From Bacilli bacterium (GTDB taxonomy: Bacteria; Bacillota_I; Bacilli_A; RFN20; CAG-826), in contig JAZLMH010000012.1 of the NCBI GenBank assembly GCA_045598525.1, positions 4,154 to 68,153 on the forward strand: DNA of 64,000 nucleotides, written 5' to 3'. Below the pieces are notes generated by a model. It worked only from the letters and a program-made list of their open reading frames with translations, was not told the DNA's origin and searched no databases. The position numbers and the translations under genes are program-made. Positions 33,637-58,946 of this stretch are shown piece by piece; position 1 is the stretch's first letter; each line of letters starts with the position of its first letter.

Positions 33637-33666
33637 AAAAAATAAAAACCAACCCAATGAGTTGGC
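33637..33666 (-). terminator. leader (attenuator) terminator upstream of the 280-aa gene
   Basis: On the minus strand: GCCAAC-UCAUUG-GGUUGG followed by UUUUUAUUUUUU. It lies 38 nt upstream of the start codon, so it is within the 5' UTR. Confidence 0.6.
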
Positions 33667-33730
33667 AGCTGGCTACCCCGAAGGGCCCTTTAGTTTTGCG
33701 TCACTAGATTTCTCTAGTTTTGCTTTTTAC
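33664..33730 (-). promoter_or_regulatory. candidate c-di-GMP-I (GEMM-I-like) riboswitch aptamer
   Basis: Minus-strand RNA AAGCAAAAC-UAGA-GAAA-UCUA-GUGACGCAAAACUAAAGGGCCCUUCGGGGUAGCCAGCUGCC. It contains GCAAAC-like, GNRA-hairpin, GACGCAAA and AGCC..CUGCC blocks. Its 3' end overlaps the terminator's 5' arm. Confidence 0.45.
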
Positions 33731-33737
33731 ATTCATA

Positions 33738-48045: not shown

Positions 48046-48136
48046 TGGCGGAGGCGTCGAGATTTGAACTCGAGCTCGGGTTGCCCCGACTAACGGTTTA
48101 GCAAACCGTCCCCTTCGGCCTCTTGGGTACGCCTCC
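48046..48136 (-). tRNA. tRNA-Ser (anticodon GCU)
   Basis: Minus strand: GGAGGCG...ACGGT-TTGCTAA-ACCGT, a long variable arm, T-arm CTCGA-GTTCAAATC-TCGA(C), acceptor CGCCTCC, encoded CCA. Confidence 0.9.
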
Positions 48137-48282: not shown

Positions 48283-48867
48283 TTAGATGGTGTTGTCCTT
48301 TAAAAGACTTTTCGTAATATCTTCTTCGATGTTTACCATGTGACTCTTTAAGGTGTCTTTTACGTCTTTCATGTTTTCGAAGAAATTCCAGGTTATGGAA
48401 TAAAAGAAGCTTGCCGTGAAGTCCATTAGGTCGATTGAGCTGATGTTTAAGTCAGCGTCGTTTTCCACTGCTTCACCAAGTTTTAACGCCGCTTCTGAGA
48501 AATCTCCATAGTAGACTGGATCAAGGTTTTGCTTAATGAAGGCGTTTGCCATTGAAAGAAGGAAGGCTTCCTGAAGGTTATGGATGGCATAGCCGTCACT
48601 GTTATTTGGGTCGGTGCATTCTTCAAGGAAGAGCTGCCTTGCTATGAGATTATCCATAAGATAATCAACGAGATCATCTTTGTTATCGCTCCAGATCCAT
48701 CCAGCGCGGTATCCTTCAAGGTCTCTTTTTACATAGTAAAGGAACACTGTTTTATCAGTGATACTTTGCTTTTGAAGTTCTGCGTCCATCCTGAATCTTG
48801 AGTCAGGCAATTTTTTGTCTATTAATTTTCCCATTCCTATATCTTTTAAAGCGTCAAGGTTAATCAT
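48283..48867 (-). CDS. hypothetical protein (194 aa, acidic, cytoplasmic), no family recognised
   Basis: ORF with its own terminator. Its 22-nt leader contains the inverted repeat CATACT-AG-AGTATG (48876-48889). Confidence 0.55.
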   Translation of the reverse strand: MINLDALKDIGMGKLIDKKLPDSRFRMDAELQKQSITDKTVFLYYVKRDLEGYRAGWIWSDNKDDLVDYLMDNLIARQLFLEECTDPNNSDGYAIHNLQEAFLLSMANAFIKQNLDPVYYGDFSEAALKLGEAVENDADLNISSIDLMDFTASFFYSITWNFFENMKDVKDTLKSHMVNIEEDITKSLLKDNTI

Positions 48868-48952: not shown

Positions 48953-49474
48953 GTGGAAAATAAGTTTTATATTCGCATACCTGGGGATACGTATTACGAT
49001 AACCCATATAACAGAGACTCCATCTGCTATTACTTCAATCTCGACAAAAAAACTATCAAAGTCGAAAGAAGAGTGATCGGTGAGGATGGTTTTAAGGTTA
49101 ACCAAAAGGCTTATTCTATTTCTAGCGATGAGGCAAATATGATCCTTAGATGCTTCACGATGAAAAATGGTTTCCTCTTAGATTACTTTGATGATTACCG
49201 CGTCGCGGATGGAAAGAAATTCTCTCATTCCATTCTTTCTATTGGGGAAGAGAAAATCTATTTCCCAGATTACCTTTGCAATTTTAAAAGCATGGACCTC
49301 TTTAAAAGGTACCGTTATTACCCAGAGAAAGAAAGGGTCCTCTTCTACTCCGCGCTAAGATTCATCCTTCATTTTGCTTTCACAAAAACCGAAAAGCCAA
49401 AGAAAGAATTCCCTACTTCGACGAAGAGCTCATTAGCCTTCAAAATCGACGCAGAATCCATCTCATTAGAATAA
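48953..49474 (+). CDS. hypothetical protein (173 aa, Tyr/Phe-rich), no family recognised
   Basis: ORF with a GTG start 7 nt after TAAAAT (48940-48945), ending at a strong bidirectional terminator. Confidence 0.5.
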   Translation: MENKFYIRIPGDTYYDNPYNRDSICYYFNLDKKTIKVERRVIGEDGFKVNQKAYSISSDEANMILRCFTMKNGFLLDYFDDYRVADGKKFSHSILSIGEEKIYFPDYLCNFKSMDLFKRYRYYPEKERVLFYSALRFILHFAFTKTEKPKKEFPTSTKSSLAFKIDAESISLE

Positions 49475-49509
49475 AAATCCACAGCAGATTCGCTGTGGAT
49501 TTTATTTTT
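49473..49509. terminator. bidirectional intrinsic terminator
   Basis: A 9-bp stem (ATCCACAGC-AGATTC-GCTGTGGAT) flanked by A- and T-runs, between convergent genes. Confidence 0.8.
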
Positions 49510-52500
49510 TTATCTTATTCCAACCATTCCGTCAGGAGCGAGATATAAACCGTTTCTTCTAGAACAGTTCCATTTGATTGCGGCTCTTACATATTCGAAG
49601 GCCGTTTTCTTTAAGACGGAGTAGCCAAAGGCTTCATTGACTTCGTGGCAAAGATCTTCCACTGTCATCTTGCCTTGGTTGGTTACAAGATCTGCCGCAC
49701 AGTTACCGATCTCAATATAGGAGATGTCGATTAGCCTACGGAAGTCTCCTTCAAGAGACTCTCTCCAGTAAGTGTTGTTGCTTGGATTGATGTTTCTTGG
49801 GTAGTAGAAATTCTTGCCGCCGCAGCTTTCCTGGCTGAATGAGAGTTTCTGAAGAGCGAGGTTGAACTTGTTTCTTGTGATTGAGCCAATGCGGCCAAGG
49901 CCAAACGCTTTTCTAAATCTTTCTTCTAGAACTTCTTGGGACATTGGGAATTCTGTTCCAACCGCTTCGATGAAGAAGGAAAGCATATCAGATTCATTTA
50001 AGAGTTCTGGATTGAACTTAGGAGTGAATTCAACGATTGTGTACGGTCTCTTGTTAGGGTTGGCGTTAACAACTTTCTTGACAAAGAGAGGATCTTTTTG
50101 GGACTCTTTCTCATCAACAAACTTTTCTCCTGCAAGAGATCTGTTATAAGAATTGATGATGCTCTTGATGACTTCTTCTTTATGATCAAGATATTCGACA
50201 CTATAGAGATAATGGATGTTCCAGTTAAGTCTATGTAAGACAGCAGGCTCATTGATATGTCTATCTCTACAAGTAAGAATTGAGTTTTTATTGTTATCGA
50301 TGATGATGCCTAGGACATAGTCATTAGGGTTCTCTTTTGAAGAGATGGCAAGGTCGATCTTGAATGTGCTTGACCCAAGGTTTTCTTTTACGACATAGCC
50401 AAGCTTCTCAAGGTCTTTTGCTAAGAAGGTGGCGATTGAATTAGGTTCATCGCCCATTTCATTAGCGCTGCGGTTAGCTAAAGAAGATACGCCTTTTTGA
50501 GCGAAAAGAAGGAAGTCTCTAAGATATTTAGCACCCATGTTCTTGGCTCTTTCCGCTGGAATCTCTTGTGGCTTCATCGATGAGAAGACGATCATTTCTT
50601 CTCTTGCGCGGCTTACTGCGACGTTAAGTCTTCTTTCACCTTTCTTTTGCGAGAGAGGACCGAAGTTAAGGGATAAGCCGAGTTTCTTGTCTGGGCCATA
50701 GGTTGTGGAGAAGAGAATTACATCTCTTTCATCGCCTTGGACATTTTCTAAGTTTTTGATGAAGATCTTCTCTCCGCCTGGGGTTGGATCATAATCAGTT
50801 TTGGCAAGCTGCTTTTCAAGCATGTCATCGATGAGGTTTTGCTGGGCTTCATTGAAAGTAACAACACCAATTGAGTGGGTGCGAAGTTTTTCATCTTGGA
50901 GTCTACGCATAATCTCTGCGACAACTTCTTTGGCTTCCGCTCTATTGATTCCTTTGCCTCTTTCGTAATCGCCTTTGACATATTTATACGAGACGGATTC
51001 TTTTTCCTGAGCAGGTGAAGGGAATGTAAGAAGGGTGTTCTCGTAGAAACGGTTATTTGAGAAGGCAATAAGAGACTCGTGGCGGCTTCTATAGTGCCAG
51101 TTGAGTCTTTCTCTTGGGAAGTTTAAGGAAATTGCGTCGTCAAGGAGGGACTCGAGGTCTTCATCCACGCTATAAAGTGAGGCAGAACCATCGTCGCCAA
51201 GACTTGTTGATGAAACGAAGAAATTAGACGGAGGCATCTGCTGCTCATCGCCAGCGATGATAACCGAATCCGCTCTAGCCATAGCGCCGACTGCTTCGCT
51301 TGTTGGAATTTGAGAAGCTTCATCGAAGATTACGACATCGAAATGATATGTATCCATATTGAGATATTGAGCAACCGCGACAGGAGACATCAAGAAACAT
51401 GGAGTGAGGGTTTCGATGAGATCCTTAAATTCATCAAAGATGTAGCGGACTGAAGCGCCTCTTCCACCATTCTTTGCAAGTTTGGTGAGCTTATAGGCAT
51501 CTGTGCTGGTTGCAAAGCTTTCGGCGTTCTTTGGATATTTTTCTGTGATTTTGGCTGCGACAACATTGACGGAAAGTCTTTGGAGTTCGTCCATTTGAGC
51601 GCGATACGTGCGTAATAATTCTTCCTGAGAAGACATGCTCAATGAACTTAATCCTCTTTCTGGAAGAACTTTTCCAAGAATTGCGAAATAGACGTCTGCC
51701 TTAAAGCTTCTAAGGAGGTTTTCTTCTTTAATTTCTGCTCTGGTGTATCTTTCAAAGAAATCTTTATCGAGGAGTTCTTTCATGGCGTTAAGGTATTCAA
51801 GGAGGTTGCACCATTCGCTTAAGCGACCACTAGAAGCGCTTGCGTCATTTAACTTGCCACCGAGGAATTTGAAGTAGTCATTGGTGTCGCCATATAAGGA
51901 AATATCTGTCTCATAGCGGTATAAGAGTTCTTCTTTCTTCTTTTCGAAGGCTCCAAAGCATTGTTTTAACTGGGTATTTGCCCTGCTAAAGATTGCGCCT
52001 CTTCCTGCGCCGCTAAGATAATGAGCGAAAACCTCTTCCCTGCCGTCTTTGAAATCCATGTTTTGGATGTTTTTGGCGAGATCTAATGTAGTTTCTAATT
52101 CATGAATTCTTAATGCGCTTTCTGCTGCATTTGAGAAGTCGTATTCGTTAAGGATGAATCTAGCAAAAGAATCTGCATTTTTAACATTTTCTTCGTCAAA
52201 ACTTACTTGTTTTAATAATTCAAGGGACTTTTTGAGACCATCTTTCTTTAGTGCTGTTTTGTCGTTTAAGAATGGTTTTAGTCTCTTTTTGAATTTGTTT
52301 TCCGCCAGGGCTCTTTTAAAGAATCCGAGTTTTTCGATTTCCTCATATTCAGCGAATAAGGCATTAGCATCGAAGGATGTGAAAACTTCTTGTTTGAAGC
52401 TAACTAAAACTGCATCTCTTTCTGATGCGAGTTTGGCTTTTAAAGAAGCGAGTTCAAGAAGTTCTTTCTCATGTTCAACGAATTCTCTATTTAAGTAATG

Positions 52501-55368
52501 CTCTGTCCAGGTTGTATAGCCGTTTTGGAGGTCAACCATGATATCGAGATAGCGTTTGGCATTGTTATATGTTTCTTCCAAAGAACCTTCTTTGAAGAAT
52601 GCATTATAGGTTGCTAATTCGCAGTCCTTGGCGATATCGATAAGTTTCTCGATTTCCTCAAAGACCTGTTCACGGTAAAGGAGCGAATACTCTTTCTTTC
52701 TAAAAGCGATGAATGGCGAATAGGCGAACACTCCAAAGCTCTTAGAGAAGTTGACGTATGTGTTTATTGCGTTACACGTTTCTTGGAATTTGTTTGGGGT
52801 GATTGAGCGAATATAGTAATCAGTGAATTCTGATTTTGTGCGGAAATCAGCGTTCTCCAAGTAGCCGATAATGGCATCATATGGAGAAATGAAGTATGTG
52901 CCTCTTTCATGAAGGTCGGACATTATTCCGTTAAGTTTAGAGCGTTTCTCCATGATGGAGTCGCCTAATTCATTGTAGCCTTCTCCGCTTTCGAGAGGAC
53001 CCATATTGAGAAGATCGCTATAGATGCTAAGAATCTCGCTCTTAGGTTTATTTAATGAAGCGACTTCAAGGGTGAACTGTCCAAGATGGAGTTCATCAAG
53101 TCTCTTTTTAACGACATCAAGAGCAACTTCTTTTTCTGCAACGAAAAGAACCTTCTTTCCGTGATAAAGGAAGTTGGTAATCATATTGGCGATTGTTTGG
53201 GATTTGCCTGTGCCTGGAGGGCCATCAAGAATGAATGAATCGCCTTTCTCGGCATCTACGATCGCTTTTAATTGGCTGGAGTCAGCCGGAAGAGCGACGG
53301 CTACATCGATTGGTTTAATCTTTCCATCCATCTCATCGGCCGGAATGATATTCGTGCGGTCGTTCCACTTCTTCTCGCCATAAACGAATGAGGCGACAAG
53401 CTTATTATTAATAACTTTGGTTCTGTGATTTTTAAGATCGCTCCACATAACGAAGTGCGAGAAATTGAAAAGGGAAAGAACTGAACGGTTTTCAAAGAGA
53501 ACCCAGTTCTTCATCGGAGCGATGATAGTTCTGATTTCGTTATAGATTAAACGGATGTCGATAAATCCACTTTGTGTTCTTGGAAGAGGGTAGAGTCTAG
53601 AGAAATCTAAACCGAATGTCTGCTTCAAATACTGGAAGAGGGTGCTATTTAATTCAACATCGTCGAAATCATATTCAAGCGAATAATGTTGCCCGGTTTT
53701 GCGGCGAGGCATCTTTGCTTCAAGAAGGAAAATTGGGGCATACATTGCGCCAGTTCCTCTTTCGGCTGCTTTATCGTTATCGTACCAACGGATCTCGCCT
53801 AAGGTTAAGAAGAGAGGGTTACAACCACTTTCTTCGATGGATGTGTTGCTTTTTCTCGCCAAACCCTTAAGCACATCTTCAGTTGTGTCGTTTTTGTTAA
53901 CGACAAGAAGGCTTCCTTTTTTGTACTCTTCGGCAATTAATGGATGATAGATTTTCTCATCGAAATGGAGAAGCTCTTTTTTCTCTTTGTCACCTAATTT
54001 AAGCGGGGTTGGGATTAGACTGATCTTTTCGTTATCGCTTAAGAATTCAAGGTATTCCTGAGAATTGACAGTCATCACTTCGATGCCTTTTTGTCCACCT
54101 TTGTAGTTTATTAATCTGTTGCGGAGATTAAGGTCTAAAAGTTTGTCTTCCCAATGGTCGTAACGGGTTCTCTCGCTTTTTTTGTCGGAAGGAAGGAACC
54201 TTCTATCTTTAACATTGATGCTTGGAAGGCTGTATTCGGAATTCGAAATGCTTGGGAAATCGAAAACAACACTTCCATCAACGAGTTTTCTGCCAGTTGG
54301 GACAGGGAGAATCCATTCTCTTCTGCAAAGTTTGATATCTAAGGCATAGTCGAAGCGGTTTTCTTCAAGATGCTCTTTTGCACTATTCATTGCTTCAGCG
54401 AAATTCATAGAAGAGTCTTCACAGAAACCAACGACATTAATCAAAGCAATGTTATTGAAGCCTTCAGAAGCGTTGTTGATAAGCGTTTGGACGTTATCTT
54501 CTCTGCTATTTGAGAATGCATATTCTTCAAGCCAGCAACCAGCCATGGCGTGGCCTTTTGTGAGAATGAGAATTGGTCTAAGACCAACAGCCTCCATCAT
54601 CGAGCAGAAAAGAAGGGATGTGTCTAAGCAGTTGCCAACCCTCTTCTCTAAAACTTCATGCGGGAGTCTCACTCTTTGGAATACTTTTTCAAATGAGGCT
54701 GGGGTTGAACTGTAGCGGATATTTGATTTTTGGCAAGCAAGATACAAGGAATCCAAATCTTCTAAAATACCATTAGGGTCATGAGATTGGTATTCATCGA
54801 AAGAGCTTGTGCCATATTTATCACGTTTGATGTCTCTTGCTTTGTTCAAGAGTTCTTTGACGAGTGGGTCATTTGGAGTAACGAATGAGGCAAGGATTTC
54901 ATCAATCCACTGCTCTGATGCGCTCTCTTCGATTGGGAGGAAGCGGATGTTTTCGCTACTGACTGCTAAAAGTTTGCCTTCTTCATTTGTCAATGTGACC
55001 GTGATTGATCCAGGCATCGATTCGTTTAAGGCGTAAAGTTTATTGACGTCTAGGACAATATTAAAAGAATCAAGGATCGTCTCTTTGCCTTTTTCTAAGC
55101 AAGTGACTCTAAGAGGCTGAATCTCAAGCAATTCTGGAAGCACTTTAAAAGACACTCTGACATCTCTAGAGTCTTCATCCGACTCATTTTTGATGGAGAT
55201 TTCTCGTAAAAATGAGAAGTTGTTCGACTTATTGCCGGTCGCTTCTTTCAAGAGGCATTCCGCCTGATAGTTAACGTAATTAACGCTTTTTCCGCAGTTA
55301 ATTGAAAGGGAGAATCCAAGATTCTCGAGCTCTGTGCTTATAGTGTTTTCAAAAATGTTGTTGTCCAT
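49510..55368 (-). CDS. 1952-aa fusion: N-terminal beta-rich region, transglutaminase-like Cys protease core, DUF4011, Upf1-like SF1 helicase (AAA_11/AAA_12) with a ~600-aa helical insert, DUF559/Vsr-fold nuclease-like domain, and DUF3320
   Basis: GNCLD (C247) with KGHAMAGCW (H273). WEDKLLDLNLRNRLINYK and NPLFLTLGEIRW (DUF4011). GPPGTGKS (aa 716). VVIFDEASQ (aa 1346). VQGDERDV and VAVSRAR. GYVVKENLGSSTFKIDLAI...LGIIIDNN (nuclease fold). PMSQEVLEERFRKAFGLGRIGS (DUF3320). Confidence 0.85.
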   Translation of the reverse strand: MDNNIFENTISTELENLGFSLSINCGKSVNYVNYQAECLLKEATGNKSNNFSFLREISIKNESDEDSRDVRVSFKVLPELLEIQPLRVTCLEKGKETILDSFNIVLDVNKLYALNESMPGSITVTLTNEEGKLLAVSSENIRFLPIEESASEQWIDEILASFVTPNDPLVKELLNKARDIKRDKYGTSSFDEYQSHDPNGILEDLDSLYLACQKSNIRYSSTPASFEKVFQRVRLPHEVLEKRVGNCLDTSLLFCSMMEAVGLRPILILTKGHAMAGCWLEEYAFSNSREDNVQTLINNASEGFNNIALINVVGFCEDSSMNFAEAMNSAKEHLEENRFDYALDIKLCRREWILPVPTGRKLVDGSVVFDFPSISNSEYSLPSINVKDRRFLPSDKKSERTRYDHWEDKLLDLNLRNRLINYKGGQKGIEVMTVNSQEYLEFLSDNEKISLIPTPLKLGDKEKKELLHFDEKIYHPLIAEEYKKGSLLVVNKNDTTEDVLKGLARKSNTSIEESGCNPLFLTLGEIRWYDNDKAAERGTGAMYAPIFLLEAKMPRRKTGQHYSLEYDFDDVELNSTLFQYLKQTFGLDFSRLYPLPRTQSGFIDIRLIYNEIRTIIAPMKNWVLFENRSVLSLFNFSHFVMWSDLKNHRTKVINNKLVASFVYGEKKWNDRTNIIPADEMDGKIKPIDVAVALPADSSQLKAIVDAEKGDSFILDGPPGTGKSQTIANMITNFLYHGKKVLFVAEKEVALDVVKKRLDELHLGQFTLEVASLNKPKSEILSIYSDLLNMGPLESGEGYNELGDSIMEKRSKLNGIMSDLHERGTYFISPYDAIIGYLENADFRTKSEFTDYYIRSITPNKFQETCNAINTYVNFSKSFGVFAYSPFIAFRKKEYSLLYREQVFEEIEKLIDIAKDCELATYNAFFKEGSLEETYNNAKRYLDIMVDLQNGYTTWTEHYLNREFVEHEKELLELASLKAKLASERDAVLVSFKQEVFTSFDANALFAEYEEIEKLGFFKRALAENKFKKRLKPFLNDKTALKKDGLKKSLELLKQVSFDEENVKNADSFARFILNEYDFSNAAESALRIHELETTLDLAKNIQNMDFKDGREEVFAHYLSGAGRGAIFSRANTQLKQCFGAFEKKKEELLYRYETDISLYGDTNDYFKFLGGKLNDASASSGRLSEWCNLLEYLNAMKELLDKDFFERYTRAEIKEENLLRSFKADVYFAILGKVLPERGLSSLSMSSQEELLRTYRAQMDELQRLSVNVVAAKITEKYPKNAESFATSTDAYKLTKLAKNGGRGASVRYIFDEFKDLIETLTPCFLMSPVAVAQYLNMDTYHFDVVIFDEASQIPTSEAVGAMARADSVIIAGDEQQMPPSNFFVSSTSLGDDGSASLYSVDEDLESLLDDAISLNFPRERLNWHYRSRHESLIAFSNNRFYENTLLTFPSPAQEKESVSYKYVKGDYERGKGINRAEAKEVVAEIMRRLQDEKLRTHSIGVVTFNEAQQNLIDDMLEKQLAKTDYDPTPGGEKIFIKNLENVQGDERDVILFSTTYGPDKKLGLSLNFGPLSQKKGERRLNVAVSRAREEMIVFSSMKPQEIPAERAKNMGAKYLRDFLLFAQKGVSSLANRSANEMGDEPNSIATFLAKDLEKLGYVVKENLGSSTFKIDLAISSKENPNDYVLGIIIDNNKNSILTCRDRHINEPAVLHRLNWNIHYLYSVEYLDHKEEVIKSIINSYNRSLAGEKFVDEKESQKDPLFVKKVVNANPNKRPYTIVEFTPKFNPELLNESDMLSFFIEAVGTEFPMSQEVLEERFRKAFGLGRIGSITRNKFNLALQKLSFSQESCGGKNFYYPRNINPSNNTYWRESLEGDFRRLIDISYIEIGNCAADLVTNQGKMTVEDLCHEVNEAFGYSVLKKTAFEYVRAAIKWNCSRRNGLYLAPDGMVGIR

Positions 55369-55412
55369 ATGGAAATTATAGAAAGTATTTCTATTCTAAA
55401 AAAGGGAAAACT

Positions 55413-55446
55413 AAAAAAAGACTCCCTGTTTTACAAACTGGGAGTC
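55413..55446 (-). terminator. intrinsic terminator after proS
   Basis: On the minus strand: GACTCCC-13 nt loop-GGGAGTC followed by TTTTTTT. Confidence 0.75.
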
Positions 55447-55465: not shown

Positions 55466-56908
55466 TTAATATGCTCTAGCGAAATAGGCAATCTGGACAG
55501 CTTTTTTACCGCTGACGACATCAACGATATCGGTGTCTTCTGGAAGCATTTCATAGATGCAACGTGCTGTGCCACCTTTGGTGAGTTCTTTGATTTTGAG
55601 CTCAGTTTCTGGTGTTCCGTCATATGCAAGAAGAGCGTATCCACCGACATTATCAAGAGCGGCATTAAGCTCATCGATGGTTTTAACTTCGGTGATGTGC
55701 TTCTCAAGATATGCTTTTGCTTTGTTATACATGTCGTTATGGATTTCATCGAGAAGAGGAGCTACCTCGGCTTCGATGTCTACAATCTTCATGACTTTCT
55801 TTTCACCATTAACACGTTTGGTCAAGACCGCTTCGCCATTAGCTAGGTCTCTTGGACCGACTTCGATACGAAGTGGGACACCTTTCATTTCGTATTGAGC
55901 GAACTTCCAGCCAGGTGTTCTTGATTCGTTGTCATCAAGTTTGACTCTGATGCCTTGTTTTGTGAGATTCTCATAAATCTCCTTACATGCATCAAGAACG
56001 CCTTCTGCCTGCTGTCTGATTGGGACAATTACAACTTGGGTTGGAGCGACTCTTGGAGGGAGGACTAAGCCGTTGTCATCACCATGGACCATGATGACCG
56101 CACCGAGTAAACGAGTTGAAACGCCCCATGAGGTTTGGTGTGGAATCTGGAGTTTTGTATCTCTTCCTTGGAATCTGATGCCATATGCTTCTGCAAAGCC
56201 TTGGCCAAGGTAATGGGATGTGCCTGACTGAAGAGCTTTTCCATCTGGCATAAGAGCTTCGATTGTGTAGGTTGCAACAGCACCTGCGAATTTCTCTTGC
56301 TCTGACTTCTTGCCTTTGAGGAATGGGATAGCAAGTAAATCGCGGCCAAGATCGTCGTAGATCTCAAGTGCTTTCTTAACGTTTTCTCTTGCTTCTTCTT
56401 CGGTTTCGAATAAGCAGTGACCTTCCTGCCAGAGGAATTCTGAGCCACGGAGGAATGGGCGGGTTGTCTTTTCCCAGCGGACAACCGAGCACCACTGGTT
56501 ATAAGCGATTGGGAGATCGCGATATGAAGAAACGATGTTCTTATAAAGGTCGCTGAATAAGATTTCACTTGTAGGACGGATGACAAGAGGGTCTTCAAGT
56601 GTTTTAGCACCACCAATTGTGGCGATAAGTGCTTCTGGAGCAAAACCTTCAACGTGTTCTTTTTCTTTGTTGAACATGCTCATTGGGATGACAAGAGGGA
56701 GATAGACGTTTTGTGCGCCAAGCTCATTCTTGATGCGCTTATTGAAGTAATTTTGGATTTCTTCCCAGAGAGCGTATGAATATGGGAGATAGTTGATGAA
56801 TCCTTTGACTGAACTATAGTTCATGAGTTCAGCTTTCTTAACTACATCGGTGTACCACTGGGCAAAATCCTCTTTTTGGGATGTGATTGCATTGTTTTTG
56901 TTTTCCAT
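55466..56908 (-). CDS. proS: prolyl-tRNA synthetase, archaeal/eukaryote-like type (no INS editing domain)
   Basis: A 480-aa class IIa architecture. N-terminus FAQWYTDVVKKAELMNY, motifs 2 and 3, and the C-terminal zinc-type domain ending ...AYFARAY. Confidence 0.93.
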   Translation of the reverse strand: MENKNNAITSQKEDFAQWYTDVVKKAELMNYSSVKGFINYLPYSYALWEEIQNYFNKRIKNELGAQNVYLPLVIPMSMFNKEKEHVEGFAPEALIATIGGAKTLEDPLVIRPTSEILFSDLYKNIVSSYRDLPIAYNQWCSVVRWEKTTRPFLRGSEFLWQEGHCLFETEEEARENVKKALEIYDDLGRDLLAIPFLKGKKSEQEKFAGAVATYTIEALMPDGKALQSGTSHYLGQGFAEAYGIRFQGRDTKLQIPHQTSWGVSTRLLGAVIMVHGDDNGLVLPPRVAPTQVVIVPIRQQAEGVLDACKEIYENLTKQGIRVKLDDNESRTPGWKFAQYEMKGVPLRIEVGPRDLANGEAVLTKRVNGEKKVMKIVDIEAEVAPLLDEIHNDMYNKAKAYLEKHITEVKTIDELNAALDNVGGYALLAYDGTPETELKIKELTKGGTARCIYEMLPEDTDIVDVVSGKKAVQIAYFARAY

Positions 56909-56910
56909 TT

Positions 56911-58713
56911 TTATTTTCCTTTCCCGATTGTAAATGAACCTTTCATATCAAAGATACGGGTTTCATGTTTGTCACTCACGGCCTGAAGCATTTGGCTATA
57001 AGGCGCGAAGATGTCAGCCGTGACATAGTCAATGCCGCTGCCGACGATAAGCTCAATTGCATTCCAGTTCTTTAAGTTACTGGCGATAATTGGCTTTTTG
57101 TATTTTATGAGTTTCTCAACGAGGGCGTGTAATTGTGATCTGATTGTTGCGTCCATGTTCTTTTCGTTTTCGTGGGAGCTGAAGTCAACAAGGAAGGCAT
57201 CACCAAGAGCAAGGATCTGAACATCCATGCGAAGGACTTTTCCTCCGAGAATAAACGAGATTTTGTATTCTTCTTCATGAAGCGATTTGAAGAGTTTGAT
57301 GACTTCTTCAAGACCAAGTTTCTCAATTGAATCAATGATGTCTTGCTCTTTGAATGTGAAGACGAGGTTTGCGTCTTTTGCGTTACGTAATCTCTTGAAG
57401 AAAAGAATGATGTTCTCGATTTCGCTGACGTTTGCAGGGTAATAAAGCTTTTGGCTCTTAAGTTCGCGTTCTGCAACATATGTGTTAAGAAGATTCTTAG
57501 CGATAGCGGCGAAAAGGTTCTTTTCATCTTTGGCACGAACAGCGTAGTTCTTAAGCTCATCAATGCCATCGAATGCACAGTCGCTTGTAGGTTCCGCTCT
57601 CCCCAAGAAGCCAACGACACGTTGTTTAGAAACCCAGTAAATAGGTCGATACGTGTACATTATCTTCTTCTCGTAGATGATGCGTTCAACTTCGCTTCTA
57701 TAGGTGACGATCTCATTCTCAGAGAAGTCGTCAATGCCTTGGTGATAGAAGTATAGGGATGAGGATGATTCAAATGCGTTAGCAGCACATCTTTTTGAGT
57801 TATTGATGATTGCCGCGCCATCACCAAGGAGGTCTTTGTTTGCGACAATGCCAACCTTGATTTCAAAGAGCGGGTCATGGGATTTGCGGTTTGCTTTAAG
57901 AACGGATGAAACCGAATTAACAACTCTGAGGGCGTAGTTAATAGCCTCGGTATTGTCGTTCATATCATAGTTAGCGATGATGAATTCCGCTTCTCCGCCT
58001 GTAAGAAGCTTTGACGTTCCTTTGACAAATGGCTCTAATGCCAAACGGTAACGGAACAAGAATGAACGGTTGAGCTTTCCGCTTTTGGAATCATCCATTC
58101 CAGCTAACTGCTTTGGCTTAAGCAAGAAGCAGAATGTCATACCATTATTAGTACCGTTGGCTTTGAGGTAGTCGATAAAGTCTCTTTCAGATGAAACAAG
58201 CAATGTTGGAGCGGTCAATGACCTTGTCGACTTCTTTTCAAGAAGAAGATATGACTCAAGATGAACGATACCTTTATCTGGGCTGCTTTTTGAGACGCGG
58301 AGGAATGAAGGTATCTTCTTGGATGATTTTCTTAAGAAGACAGTAGTCTGAAGATAATCTGTAGTTTGTTTTCCAGAAAGGAGATCATTAATCCAGTTTC
58401 TGATTCTTGCAGGCTCATGCCCTGGGAATGAGTTATAGAAATCTTCAAGCGTTCTGCTTTTCTTGTTGCTCATGTCGCCAAGGTTAAAGTAAGTGACCGT
58501 ATTCTTTGGTGAATCGATTCTAAATACACGGATGGATGACGCTTCGTAGGTCATTGCCCTTTTGAACTCTTTGTCTCTTCTAAGGGCAAAAACATAGGTG
58601 ATTATAATGGTGATTAAAAAAGCAGCGCAGAGGACGATGATCGCGCTTAAAACAACAAATTGCCAATCAACTGTGCTTGCCCAATTTTTAATAGCGTCTA
58701 ATAATTCTTGCAT
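56911..58713 (-). CDS. membrane-anchored protein with degenerate GGDEF-like (LTGGEAEF) and degenerate EAL-like (YRPI...GFLGRAEP) domains; candidate c-di-GMP receptor
   Basis: One N-terminal TM helix. The central region follows the GGDEF-domain pattern. The C-terminal region follows the EAL pattern (YRPIYW..VVGFLGRAEP; LVFTFKEQD; ISFILGG; LVDFS; ASNLKNWN..GIDYVTADIF) but lacks the catalytic Glu residues. Its stop lies 2 nt before the proS ATG. Confidence 0.6.
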   Translation of the reverse strand: MQELLDAIKNWASTVDWQFVVLSAIIVLCAAFLITIIITYVFALRRDKEFKRAMTYEASSIRVFRIDSPKNTVTYFNLGDMSNKKSRTLEDFYNSFPGHEPARIRNWINDLLSGKQTTDYLQTTVFLRKSSKKIPSFLRVSKSSPDKGIVHLESYLLLEKKSTRSLTAPTLLVSSERDFIDYLKANGTNNGMTFCFLLKPKQLAGMDDSKSGKLNRSFLFRYRLALEPFVKGTSKLLTGGEAEFIIANYDMNDNTEAINYALRVVNSVSSVLKANRKSHDPLFEIKVGIVANKDLLGDGAAIINNSKRCAANAFESSSSLYFYHQGIDDFSENEIVTYRSEVERIIYEKKIMYTYRPIYWVSKQRVVGFLGRAEPTSDCAFDGIDELKNYAVRAKDEKNLFAAIAKNLLNTYVAERELKSQKLYYPANVSEIENIILFFKRLRNAKDANLVFTFKEQDIIDSIEKLGLEEVIKLFKSLHEEEYKISFILGGKVLRMDVQILALGDAFLVDFSSHENEKNMDATIRSQLHALVEKLIKYKKPIIASNLKNWNAIELIVGSGIDYVTADIFAPYSQMLQAVSDKHETRIFDMKGSFTIGKGK

Positions 58714-58855: not shown

Positions 58856-58946
58856 GGAGAAGTACCCAAGCGGCTGAAGGGGTTAGTCTCGAAAACTGAT
58901 AGTGGGTGCAAGCCCAGCGAGGGTTCAAATCCCTCCTTCTCCGCCA
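58856..58946 (+). tRNA. tRNA-Ser (anticodon CGA)
   Basis: Acceptor GGAGAAG/CTTCTCC, anticodon loop CTCGAAA, a long variable arm, T-arm GAGGG-TTCAAAT-CCCTC, encoded CCA. Confidence 0.9.

What the first reader, a model, noticed from the sequence alone, without database searches (positions are those of the whole stretch)
49510..55368. 1952-aa fusion of transglutaminase-like, DUF4011, SF1 helicase, nuclease and DUF3320 modules: candidate single-gene nucleic-acid surveillance/defence protein
**Modules on one polypeptide:**
- An unassigned beta-rich N-terminus (aa 1-200).
- A transglutaminase-like Cys-His core (GNCLD C247, KGHAMAGCW H273).
- DUF4011 signatures (WEDKLLDLNLRNRLINYK, NPLFLTLGEIRW).
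- An Upf1-like SF1 helicase, whose Walker A (aa 716) and DEAS box (aa 1349) are separated by a roughly 600-aa helical insert.
- A DUF559/Vsr-fold nuclease-like domain (aa ~1645-1735).
- DUF3320.

**Novelty.** The DUF4011-helicase-nuclease-DUF3320 backbone exists in databases but is functionally uncharacterised as far as I know. I do not recall seeing the N-terminal papain-like transglutaminase module described on it.

**Context.** The gene has its own leaderless-type promoter (TATAAT-N6-ATG, no Shine-Dalgarno sequence). It is insulated by terminators on both sides. It sits next to a tRNA-Ser and two orphan genes, a context typical of defence islands.
Basis: partly seen in the sequence, partly recalled or inferred. 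Interest (0 to 1): 0.72.

Follow-up and report, generated by a model that had tools for sequence, protein, structure and literature searches.

The report
Divergent ProA anti-phage helicase-nuclease gene
This 1952-residue gene is real and intact, but it is a divergent member of an already catalogued family of single-protein helicase-nuclease phage-defence candidates (ProA), inherited vertically beside the prolyl-tRNA synthetase gene, not a new fusion in a defence island.

Summary
DUF4011, the Upf1-like SF1 helicase and the MTES_1575/Vsr-type nuclease pass Pfam cut-offs. Transglut_core is sub-threshold and DUF3320 is not detected directly.

The protein matches NCBIfam NF058533 "anti-phage protein ProA" end to end (1511.5 bits, cut-off 1500) and PADLOC candidate PDC-S37. 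It misses the cut-off for its validated paralogue Hhe.

The N-terminal module is not new. It occurs in more than 4,000 protein clusters, mostly at the start of ~1,900-1,960-aa proteins, and on 82 plasmids. Structure prediction gives a beta-sandwich followed by a transglutaminase/papain-like domain. C247 and H273 are 98% conserved.

The context is housekeeping, not a defence island. The order proS-ProA-two small genes holds in all eight related loci with flanking DNA. ProA follows proS in lineages down to 42% ProA identity, but is absent there in 32 other relatives. All domains are under purifying selection (dN/dS 0.02-0.13), and a leaderless promoter is conserved.

Verdict: a new, borderline member of a known kind. 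Defence function is inferred by homology, mechanism is unknown, and the ProA source paper was not found.

The parts
49510..55368 (-). ProA-family gene: 1952 codons plus the stop codon
   Evidence: ORF list and translation. NCBIfam NF058533 antiphage_ProA scores 1511.5 bits against a cut-off of 1500, matching residues 48-1917 to profile positions 6-1902 of 1903. PADLOC PDC-S37 gives 4.2e-282.
54934..55314 (-). N-terminal Ig-like beta-sandwich domain (aa 19-145)
   Evidence: AF2 model of aa 1-400 has pLDDT 87 and pTM 0.85, with strands across residues 19-143. Foldseek returns weak Ig-like sandwich hits. dN/dS is 0.06-0.09.
54304..54921 (-). Transglutaminase/papain-like cysteine-protease-fold domain (aa 150-355). 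C247 and H273 form the conserved pair. N311 sits where the family has Glu.
   Evidence: C247 and H273 are each conserved in 131 of 134 representatives. The AF2 model of the domain alone has pLDDT 92. The Foldseek top 50 are almost all transglutaminase-fold proteins, but the best E-value is only 2.3e-3. Pfam Transglut_core is sub-threshold, and 14 of 35 aligned sequences (the window's N-terminus among them) hit it.
53299..54153 (-). DUF4011 region (aa 406-690)
   Evidence: Pfam PF13195 matches residues 409-581 with E=2.6e-26 and 92.9 bits.
53074..53298 (-). Helicase RecA1, N-terminal part, with Walker A GPPGTGKS 716-723 (lysine K722)
   Evidence: Pfam AAA_11 matches residues 696-759. The motif is conserved in at least 90% of the family.
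It is the fastest-evolving part of the protein.
   Evidence: No Pfam hit. It aligns colinearly in homologues. Identity falls to 17% in distant family members. dN/dS is 0.09-0.13.
50494..51363 (-). Helicase RecA1 C-terminal part plus RecA2. Motifs present: motif II FDEASQ (DEAS 1349-1352), GDEQQMPP, WHYRS, QGDERD and VAVSRAR.
   Evidence: Pfam AAA_12 matches residues 1406-1598. All motifs are intact and conserved across the family.
50149..50433 (-). MTES_1575 / Vsr-type endonuclease-fold domain (aa 1646-1740)
   Evidence: Pfam PF18741 scores 52.5 bits against a cut-off of 38.2. The family-conserved residues D1672, D1691, R1701, D1702, R1703, W1716 and E1725 are all present.
49513..50148 (-). 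C-terminal region (aa 1741-1952), DUF3320-like by colinearity only
   Evidence: No PF11784 hit in this sequence. Colinear homologues such as P0036 carry PF11784.
55369..55380 (-). TATAAT -10 box (55380-55375) plus a 6-nt spacer running directly into the ATG: a leaderless promoter
   Evidence: Read from the sequence. TA(C/T)AAT-N6-ATG, no Shine-Dalgarno sequence and a TTGTC(A/C/T) -35-like element 18-19 nt upstream are conserved in eight related loci. The distant relative L092 has a GGAG leader instead. The consensus scan did not list this site.
55413..55446 (-). Intrinsic terminator of proS upstream of ProA: GACTCCC, a 13-nt loop, GGGAGTC, then T7
   Evidence: Read from the sequence. An equivalent hairpin is present in all relatives. 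The scanner missed it because the loop exceeds 8 nt.
49474..49503 (.). Bidirectional terminator between ProA and the convergent gene 48953-49474
   Evidence: 12-bp stem flanked by an A-run and a T-run.

Best explanation
The gene encodes a divergent, vertically inherited member of the ProA family. ProA proteins are large single polypeptides built on the same DUF4011 / Upf1-like SF1 helicase / Vsr-type nuclease / DUF3320 chassis as the defence protein Hhe. They add an N-terminal beta-sandwich and a transglutaminase-like Cys-His domain.

**Most likely mode of action (inferred, not shown).** The protein is made constitutively from its own leaderless promoter. The ATP-driven helicase loads on nucleic acid of an invading phage or other mobile element. 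The C-terminal endonuclease then cuts it, as inferred for Hhe, where a nuclease-site mutation abolishes protection.

**The N-terminal domain.** It is catalytically competent: Cys-His is conserved, with Asn at residue 311 in this clade and Glu in most of the family. It most likely acts as a protease or amidase that either senses or processes a protein trigger, or releases or activates the motor-nuclease.

**What is shown:** the architecture, family membership, intact motifs, purifying selection on every module, the promoter and terminators, and synteny.

**What is inferred:** the defence role, the substrate, the order of events, and the role of the transglutaminase-like domain.
For: **Family membership**
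- Full-length match to NF058533 ProA above its curated cut-off, and to PDC-S37.
- Colinear 31% identity over 1,928 aa with P0036, which scores 2,170 bits on ProA.
- Hhe is the next-best family at 589 bits. Its defence activity and nuclease dependence are reported in 10.1101/2022.06.16.496414.

**Functional integrity**
- The helicase motifs I, II, III, V and VI are intact, as are the conserved acidic and Arg residues of the nuclease.
- C247 and H273 are 98% conserved, with papain-like topology: Cys at a helix N-terminus and His at a strand start.
- Foldseek hits are consistently transglutaminase-fold proteins.
- dN/dS is 0.02-0.13 in all eight modules.

**Accessory and mobile behaviour of the family**
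- Found on 82 plasmids, 25 of them conjugative.
- On a Klebsiella IncR plasmid the gene is flanked by IS elements.
- Neighbours elsewhere include Wadjet JetABC, an AIPR and a Macro-domain gene, and type I R-M genes.
- Presence at the proS site among relatives is patchy.
Against: - No experiment on this protein or its clade exists.
- I could not find the primary paper behind the name ProA, so the evidence for ProA defence rests on the NCBIfam label.
- The score is only 11.5 bits above the cut-off. The nearest Bacilli relatives tested (P0025 at 1465 bits, P0162 at 1458 bits) fall just below it.
- The local context is housekeeping, and none of 10 neighbours hits a PADLOC defence family.
- The gene has stayed next to proS across deep divergence. 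That is unusual for a fast-turnover defence gene.
- A DUF4011 gene is a core gene in P. aeruginosa (PMC10250203).
Confidence: 0.6

Rival explanations
1. Housekeeping nucleic-acid surveillance. In this small-genome Bacilli lineage the protein would be a resident genome- or RNA-maintenance helicase-nuclease rather than an anti-phage effector. Possible jobs include resolving R-loops, resolving replication-transcription conflicts, or clearing aberrant nucleic acids, as eukaryotic Upf1-like helicases do.
For: - The order 600-aa gene-proS-ProA holds in all close relatives and in lineages down to 42% ProA identity.
- ProA divergence tracks that of its flanking genes, which indicates vertical descent.
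- Purifying selection is strong and uniform across modules.
- A constitutive-looking leaderless promoter is conserved.
- The neighbours are housekeeping genes.
- Another homologue sits right after parAB near gidAB.
- The closest solved structures by sequence are Upf1, IGHMBP2 and Sen1 helicases.
- A DUF4011 gene is core in P. aeruginosa.
Against: - The gene is absent downstream of proS in 29 metagenome loci and in three nearest outgroups that keep the flanking pair. It is therefore dispensable.
- The family is carried on plasmids and flanked by IS elements.
- The family label and the paralogue Hhe both point to defence.
- Some homologues sit beside Wadjet or AIPR genes.
Confidence: 0.22
2. Barrier against plasmids and integrative conjugative elements (ICEs). 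The target would be conjugative or transforming DNA (ssDNA entry intermediates) instead of phage.
For: - SF1B helicases load on ssDNA.
- The homologue in L092 is directly followed by JetA, JetB and an SMC-like JetC-type gene of the anti-plasmid Wadjet system.
- A Mycoplasma hominis ICE is reported inserted into, and so disrupting, a DUF4011 gene (PMC12228374).
Against: - Many family members are themselves plasmid-borne.
- Hhe was scored against phages.
- There is no direct evidence either way for this clade.
Confidence: 0.12
3. Inactive relic, or a mis-called fusion of separate genes.
For: - Pfam does not detect DUF3320, and Transglut_core is sub-threshold.
- Residue 311 is Asn where 84% of the family has Glu.
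Against: - A single uninterrupted frame of ~1,945-1,954 codons is kept in at least five species, with no stops.
- dN/dS is 0.02-0.13 in every module.
- All catalytic motifs are intact.
- N311 is fixed across the whole clade, and Cys-His-Asn is a working papain-type triad (established knowledge).
Confidence: 0.03

Closest known systems
ProA (NCBIfam NF058533.1, 'anti-phage protein ProA', equivalog)
   Same: - The match is colinear from end to end: residues 48-1917 against profile positions 6-1902 of 1903.
- It covers the beta-sandwich, the transglutaminase-like domain, DUF4011, the split SF1 helicase with its long insert, the MTES_1575 nuclease and the C-terminal domain.
- The Cys-His pair, the helicase motifs and the nuclease motifs are conserved.
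   Different: - The score is borderline: 1511.5 bits against a cut-off of 1500. Typical members score ~2,170-2,220 bits.
- Residue 311 is Asn and residue 313 is Val, where the family has Glu and Thr.
- DUF3320 is not detectable.
- The gene is leaderless and linked to proS in this clade.
PADLOC candidate PDC-S37
   Same: Very strong match over residues 401-1934 to profile positions 8-1533 of 1550 (E=4.2e-282). This covers the DUF4011-helicase-nuclease-C-terminal chassis.
   Different: - The PDC-S37 profile starts at DUF4011 and does not cover the ~400-aa N-terminal module.
- By its name and the library's description, it is a candidate, not a validated system.
Hhe (Gao et al. 2020 single-gene system; NCBIfam NF042953.1, PADLOC PDLC02194)
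   Same: - It shares DUF4011, the Upf1-like SF1 helicase and the Vsr-type nuclease on one polypeptide.
- Homology is clear over residues ~981-1770 (589 bits) and 1249-1742 (1.4e-120).
- Its nuclease is required for defence.
   Different: - It misses the equivalog cut-off by a wide margin (589 bits against 2000).
- The Hhe profiles do not align to the window's N-terminal 980 residues, so no transglutaminase-like module is matched.
Transglutaminase-like / papain-fold cysteine proteases and amidases (PNGase, LapG, PeiP/PeiW, BDI_1141, animal transglutaminases)
   Same: - Predicted fold and topology agree, with the conserved Cys at a helix N-terminus and His on the following strand.
- A beta-sandwich precedes the core, as in animal transglutaminases and BDI_1141.
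   Different: - Similarity is weak: Foldseek best E=2.3e-3, query-normalised TM-score <=0.38, Pfam below cut-off.
- The third catalytic residue is uncertain.
- The domain is fused to a helicase-nuclease.
Eukaryotic Upf1-like SF1B helicases (Upf1, IGHMBP2, Sen1/senataxin)
   Same: They are the closest solved structures by sequence for both RecA halves. They share the AAA_11 and AAA_12 motifs.
   Different: Only the motor is shared, with E-values of 1e-5 to 1e-7. They have no DUF4011, nuclease or transglutaminase-like module. The insert in RecA1 is far larger here.

Membership tests
ProA (NCBIfam NF058533.1) | Whole-protein score at or above the curated equivalog cut-off (1500 bits) | tested here: met
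   1511.5 bits, a margin of only 11.5 bits. Relatives P0025 (1465.3) and P0162 (1458.4) fall just below. P0036 (2170) and the Klebsiella plasmid protein (2219) pass easily.
ProA (NCBIfam NF058533.1) | Full-length colinear architecture including the N-terminal module | tested here: met
   One stretch matches residues 48-1917 to profile positions 6-1902 of 1903. BLASTP gives 31% identity over 1,928 aa with P0036.
ProA (NCBIfam NF058533.1) | Anti-phage activity | not testable with these tools
The primary publication was not found in 10 literature searches.
Hhe (NCBIfam NF042953.1) | Score at or above the equivalog cut-off (2000 bits) | tested here: not met
   589.1 bits, covering residues 981-1770 only.
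PADLOC PDC-S37 | Near full-length match to the PDC-S37 HMM | tested here: met
   E=4.2e-282 and 937.6 bits, residues 401-1934 against profile positions 8-1533 of 1550. The tool gives no curated threshold.
Transglutaminase-like superfamily (Pfam PF01841) | Pfam gathering score (23 bits) | tested here: not met
   19.0 bits on the full protein and 21.4 bits on the N-terminus alone. 14 of 35 aligned sequences (the window's N-terminus among them) hit it, none with E below 3.1e-4; only the window's own score was compared with the cut-off. Seven hit DUF553.
Transglutaminase-like superfamily (Pfam PF01841) | Transglutaminase/papain-like fold | tested here: inconclusive
   The AF2 domain model has pLDDT 92. 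The Foldseek top 50 are almost exclusively transglutaminase-fold proteins, but the best E-value is 2.3e-3 and the query-normalised TM-score is <=0.38.
Transglutaminase-like superfamily (Pfam PF01841) | Conserved catalytic Cys and His | tested here: met
   C247 in 131 of 134 and H273 in 131 of 134 representatives at 50% identity.
Transglutaminase-like superfamily (Pfam PF01841) | Third catalytic residue (Asp, Asn or Glu) placed next to the His | tested here: inconclusive
   Candidates are residue 311 (Glu in 114, Asp in 11, Asn in 8 of 134; Asn in the window and its clade), D291/D292, and D344 (97% conserved).
Upf1-like SF1B helicase | AAA_11 and AAA_12 above Pfam cut-offs, with intact motifs I, II, III, V and VI | tested here: met
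   59.2 and 76.8 bits against a cut-off of 27 for each. The motifs are conserved.
MTES_1575 / Vsr-type endonuclease (PF18741) | Pfam gathering score and the family's conserved acidic and Arg residues | tested here: met
   52.5 bits against 38.2. D1672, D1691, R1701, D1702, R1703, W1716 and E1725 are present.
DUF3320 (PF11784) | Pfam match | tested here: not met
   No hit at E<=1 on the full protein or E<=10 on residues 1750-1952. Colinear homologues do carry PF11784.
Defence island / mobile island | Neighbouring defence or mobility genes, compositional anomaly, or att repeats | tested here: not met
   PADLOC run on 10 neighbours gives only a weak mad2 methyltransferase-fold hit. GC is 0.40-0.43, like the rest of the window. 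Only chance repeats were found. The flanks are proS, a GT2 glycosyltransferase and a tRNA.

The most novel reading that the evidence does not exclude
In this gut Bacilli lineage, ProA would not be a transient defence gene. It would be an anciently resident, proS-linked, leaderlessly expressed nucleic-acid surveillance enzyme. Its conserved Cys-His(-Asn) transglutaminase-like domain would perform an essential proteolytic or amidase step coupled to the helicase-nuclease, a protease-motor-nuclease mechanism that I did not find described for any characterised system.
Probability: 0.2. Interest if true: 0.55.

Novelty: new member of a known kind. Interest (0 to 1): 0.3.

Why it matters
The gene itself adds little that is new. 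The architecture is already modelled in NCBIfam and PADLOC and is widespread across phyla and on plasmids.

Three things give it modest value.

- **It marks the edge of the ProA equivalog.** This Bacilli clade scores 1458-1511 bits against a cut-off of 1500, so some orthologues are named ProA and others are not.
- **It shows long vertical residence.** This clade has kept the gene at one chromosomal site next to proS, with losses in sister lineages. That bears on how durable such genes can be in small genomes.
- **The transglutaminase-like domain remains unexplained.** It is more conserved across the family than DUF4011 or the nuclease. Whatever it does is central to ProA function and is directly testable with C247 and H273 mutants.

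Tried and rejected
- **Literature.** All ten searches for ProA, PDC-S37, DUF4011, DUF3320, Hhe and transglutaminase plus defence were used. Text searches inside eight papers followed. The source of the name ProA was not found. Only information on Hhe and on DUF4011 context was retrieved.
- **Sequence search of the Protein Data Bank with the N-terminal profile.** It gave no meaningful hit, only noise at E>=0.17.
- **Foldseek with the two-domain model.** The result was dominated by Ig-like sandwiches. I re-modelled the core alone.
- **E. coli RefSeq genomes.** A search with the Klebsiella ProA DNA, meant to read PGAP's product name, found no match.
- **Cluster names.** They predate the ProA model and read 'DUF3320/DUF4011 domain-containing protein'.
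- **Integration at tRNA-Ser.** Rejected. There are no att-like repeats, the 3' end of the tRNA faces away from ProA, and GC is unremarkable.
- **The two small neighbouring genes as partners of ProA.** Rejected as unsupported.
  - They are separate, convergent and divergent transcription units.
  - They hit no Pfam, NCBIfam, PADLOC or PHROGs family.
  - They are absent next to ProA in L092, L096 and L099. One remote homologue lies 2.6 kb downstream in L095.
Full report
**1. The observation**

The ORF at 49510..55368 on the minus strand is real: 1952 codons, an ATG start and no internal stops.

Pfam places four families above their cut-offs:
- DUF4011, residues 409-581, 92.9 bits
- AAA_11, residues 696-759
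- AAA_12, residues 1406-1598
- MTES_1575 endonuclease, residues 1650-1739, 52.5 bits against 38.2

Two of the six claimed modules are weaker than stated.
- Transglut_core reaches only 19.0 bits on the full protein and 21.4 bits on the isolated N-terminus, against a cut-off of 23.
- DUF3320 gives no hit, even at E<=10 on the isolated C-terminus.

A small correction: the Walker A lysine is K722, because GPPGTGKS spans 716-723. A K721A mutant would hit a glycine.

**2. What the databases already call it**

- NCBIfam NF058533.1, 'anti-phage protein ProA' (an equivalog model), matches residues 48-1917 to profile positions 6-1902 of 1903. The score is 1511.5 bits against a curated cut-off of 1500.
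- PADLOC's candidate PDC-S37 matches residues 401-1934 at E=4.2e-282.
- Hhe is the next family, at 589 bits against a cut-off of 2000, so the protein is a paralogue of Hhe and not Hhe itself.
- Hhe is reported to protect against lambda, T3, T7 and PhiV-1, and to lose activity with an E1731A nuclease mutation (10.1101/2022.06.16.496414).

The backbone is therefore not uncharacterised. The whole architecture, N-terminal module included, is already a named family.

I could not find the paper behind the name ProA in the searchable library. Cluster names in the protein collection still read 'DUF3320/DUF4011 domain-containing protein'.

Membership is borderline. Typical members score 2170-2219 bits. 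Two Bacilli relatives of the window's protein score 1465 and 1458 bits, just under the cut-off.

**3. The N-terminal module**

An exhaustive search with residues 1-400 found 4,115 cluster representatives at E<=1e-3, of which 373 are at E<=1e-30. Most full-length hits are 1,900-1,960 aa with the module at the N-terminus. A tblastn search finds the module on 82 plasmids across Pseudomonadota, Bacteroidota and Actinomycetota. Of these plasmids, 25 are conjugative. The fusion is common.

AlphaFold2 models are confident:
- residues 1-400: pLDDT 87, pTM 0.85
- residues 150-375: pLDDT 92, pTM 0.90

They show a beta-sandwich (residues 19-145) followed by an alpha/beta domain.

Foldseek with the second domain alone returns almost only transglutaminase/papain-fold proteins among its top 50 hits. 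These include PNGase, LapG, a Cytophaga cysteine protease, PeiP/PeiW, BDI_1141, Rad4/XPC, transglutaminases 2 and 3, TglA and CPR-C4. The scores are weak: best E=2.3e-3 and query-normalised TM-score <=0.38.

C247 lies at the N-terminus of helix 247-260, and H273 lies at the start of strand 273-279. Each is conserved in 131 of 134 representatives.

The third catalytic residue is unsettled.
- Residue 311 is Glu in 114, Asp in 11 and Asn in 8 of the 134 representatives.
- The window and its whole clade have Asn at 311, with Val at 313 where the family has Thr.
- D344 is 97% conserved.

My conclusion is that the fold and the Cys-His pair are supported and the triad is incomplete. That N311 is the third residue is inference, since Cys-His-Asn is the papain arrangement.

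**4. Integrity of the other modules**

- All helicase motifs are intact and match the family consensus.
- The nuclease keeps D1672, D1691, R1701-D1702-R1703, W1716 and E1725.
- Between species pairs with unsaturated dS, dN/dS is 0.02-0.13 in each of eight modules. The beta-sandwich gives 0.06-0.09 and the transglutaminase-like domain 0.07-0.09.
- Across distant family members the helicase core is most conserved (52-63% identity).
- Next come the transglutaminase-like domain (36%), the nuclease (32%) and DUF4011 (28%).
- The beta-sandwich (20%), the RecA1 insert (17%) and the C-terminus (17%) vary most.

**5. Context and evolution**

*Neighbours.* They are housekeeping genes or genes of unknown function:
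- proS at 55466-56908
- a 600-aa gene with no family match
- a GT2 glycosyltransferase
- a phosphodiester glycosidase
- tRNA-Ser genes

None of ten neighbours hits a defence family, apart from a methyltransferase-fold similarity. GC content is unremarkable, and there are no att-like repeats.

*Close relatives.* Eleven loci from rumen and horse-gut Bacilli/Erysipelotrichaceae MAGs carry orthologues at 67-74% identity. These are GTDB species representatives. Every locus with flanking DNA shows the same gene order around ProA. Those that reach upstream have proS. Those that reach downstream have homologues of genes 48953 and 48283.

*More distant lineages.* The order 600-aa gene-proS-ProA also holds in four further loci:
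- L095: 52% ProA identity
- L096: 47%
- L099: 46%
- L092: 42%, where JetA, JetB and an SMC-like JetC-type gene follow ProA

ProA identity tracks that of the flanking genes. This indicates vertical co-divergence.

*Absences.* ProA is absent downstream of proS in 29 metagenome loci with at least 6 kb of downstream sequence; proS identity there is 57-71%, and 13 of them keep the 600-aa gene-proS pair. It is also absent in three outgroups found by searching with ProRS, at 72-74% identity.

*Other family members.*
- One follows parAB.
- One is next to an AIPR gene and a Macro-domain gene.
- Some lie among metabolic genes.
- One is between IS elements on a Klebsiella IncR plasmid.

*Reading.* This is an accessory family overall. 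In this lineage it is a long-term chromosomal resident at a variable site downstream of proS, with repeated loss.

**6. Expression signals**

TATAAT lies 6 nt before the ATG, with no Shine-Dalgarno sequence. In eight related loci the layout is the same:
- a terminator hairpin
- a TTGTC(A/C/T) -35-like element
- an 18-19 nt spacer
- TA(C/T)AAT
- 6 nt
- ATG

This is good comparative support for a leaderless mRNA. The distant relative L092 has a GGAG leader instead. A bidirectional terminator at 49474-49503 separates ProA from the convergent gene.

**7. Mechanism**

*Best-supported model (confidence about 0.6).* ProA is a constitutively made, single-polypeptide helicase-nuclease. It acts on foreign nucleic acid as inferred for Hhe. 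The transglutaminase-like Cys-His domain adds a proteolytic or amidase step, either for sensing or for activation.

*Shown:* architecture, family membership, intact motifs, purifying selection and synteny.

*Inferred:* the defence role, the substrate and the role of the N-terminal domain.

*Rivals:*
- A housekeeping Upf1-like surveillance enzyme (0.22). Deep synteny and the housekeeping context favour it. Dispensability in sister lineages and plasmid carriage count against it.
- A barrier against plasmids and integrative conjugative elements (0.12).
- An inactive relic (0.03).

**8. Verdict**

The defence-candidate reading is reasonable but not original. The novelty claim and the defence-island claim fail. 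This is a new, divergent member of a known kind, with interest 0.3.

Noticed in passing
window 33661-33734 (-): A c-di-GMP-I riboswitch aptamer scores above Rfam's gathering score (56.5 bits against 35). The gene it controls was not examined.
   Followed up: no
window 56911-58713 (-): A 600-aa protein with an N-terminal membrane-like segment matches no Pfam, NCBIfam or PADLOC family. It lies immediately upstream of proS in most ProRS-seeded loci that extend upstream. The pairing holds down to ~20-25% identity, so this looks like a deeply conserved gene pair of unknown function.
   Followed up: partly
window 48283-48867 (-) and 48953-49474 (+): The two 'orphan' genes are not orphans. Both have homologues at 41-49% identity in the same positions in all close relatives. 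One remote homologue of 48953 (31%) lies 2.6 kb downstream of ProA in L095. Neither matches any library family, and they evolve faster than ProA.
   Followed up: partly
L092 13915-19214: In a relative with 42% ProA identity, JetA, JetB and an SMC-like JetC-type gene of the Wadjet system lie directly downstream of ProA at the same proS-linked site.
   Followed up: no
L100 2655-5854: Another ProA homologue (40% identity) is divergently adjacent to an AIPR/HRDC gene and a Macro-domain gene. This neighbourhood looks defence-like, unlike the window's.
   Followed up: no
L102 (Klebsiella oxytoca IncR plasmid CP026283.1) 2400-11216: A high-scoring ProA gene (2219 bits) is flanked by IS110 and IS3 transposases on a plasmid. 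Its 90%-identity cluster has 526 members in Klebsiella and Raoultella.
   Followed up: partly
L097/L098 5649-13844: In another Bacilli/Mollicutes-like lineage, ProA (43% identity) sits directly after gidA-gidB-parA-parB, which is probably next to the replication origin.
   Followed up: no
window 58856-58946 (+) and 48046-48136 (-): Two tRNA-Ser genes (anticodons cga and gct) bracket the proS-ProA block at distances of 2-3.5 kb. Rfam at gathering score lists the first but not the second, which only ARAGORN reports.
   Followed up: no
L103-L105, and L012-L091 downstream of proS: The segment downstream of proS varies between lineages. It holds Nudix, Sel1 or unannotated genes, or ProA. This may be a recombination or insertion hotspot.
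   Followed up: partly
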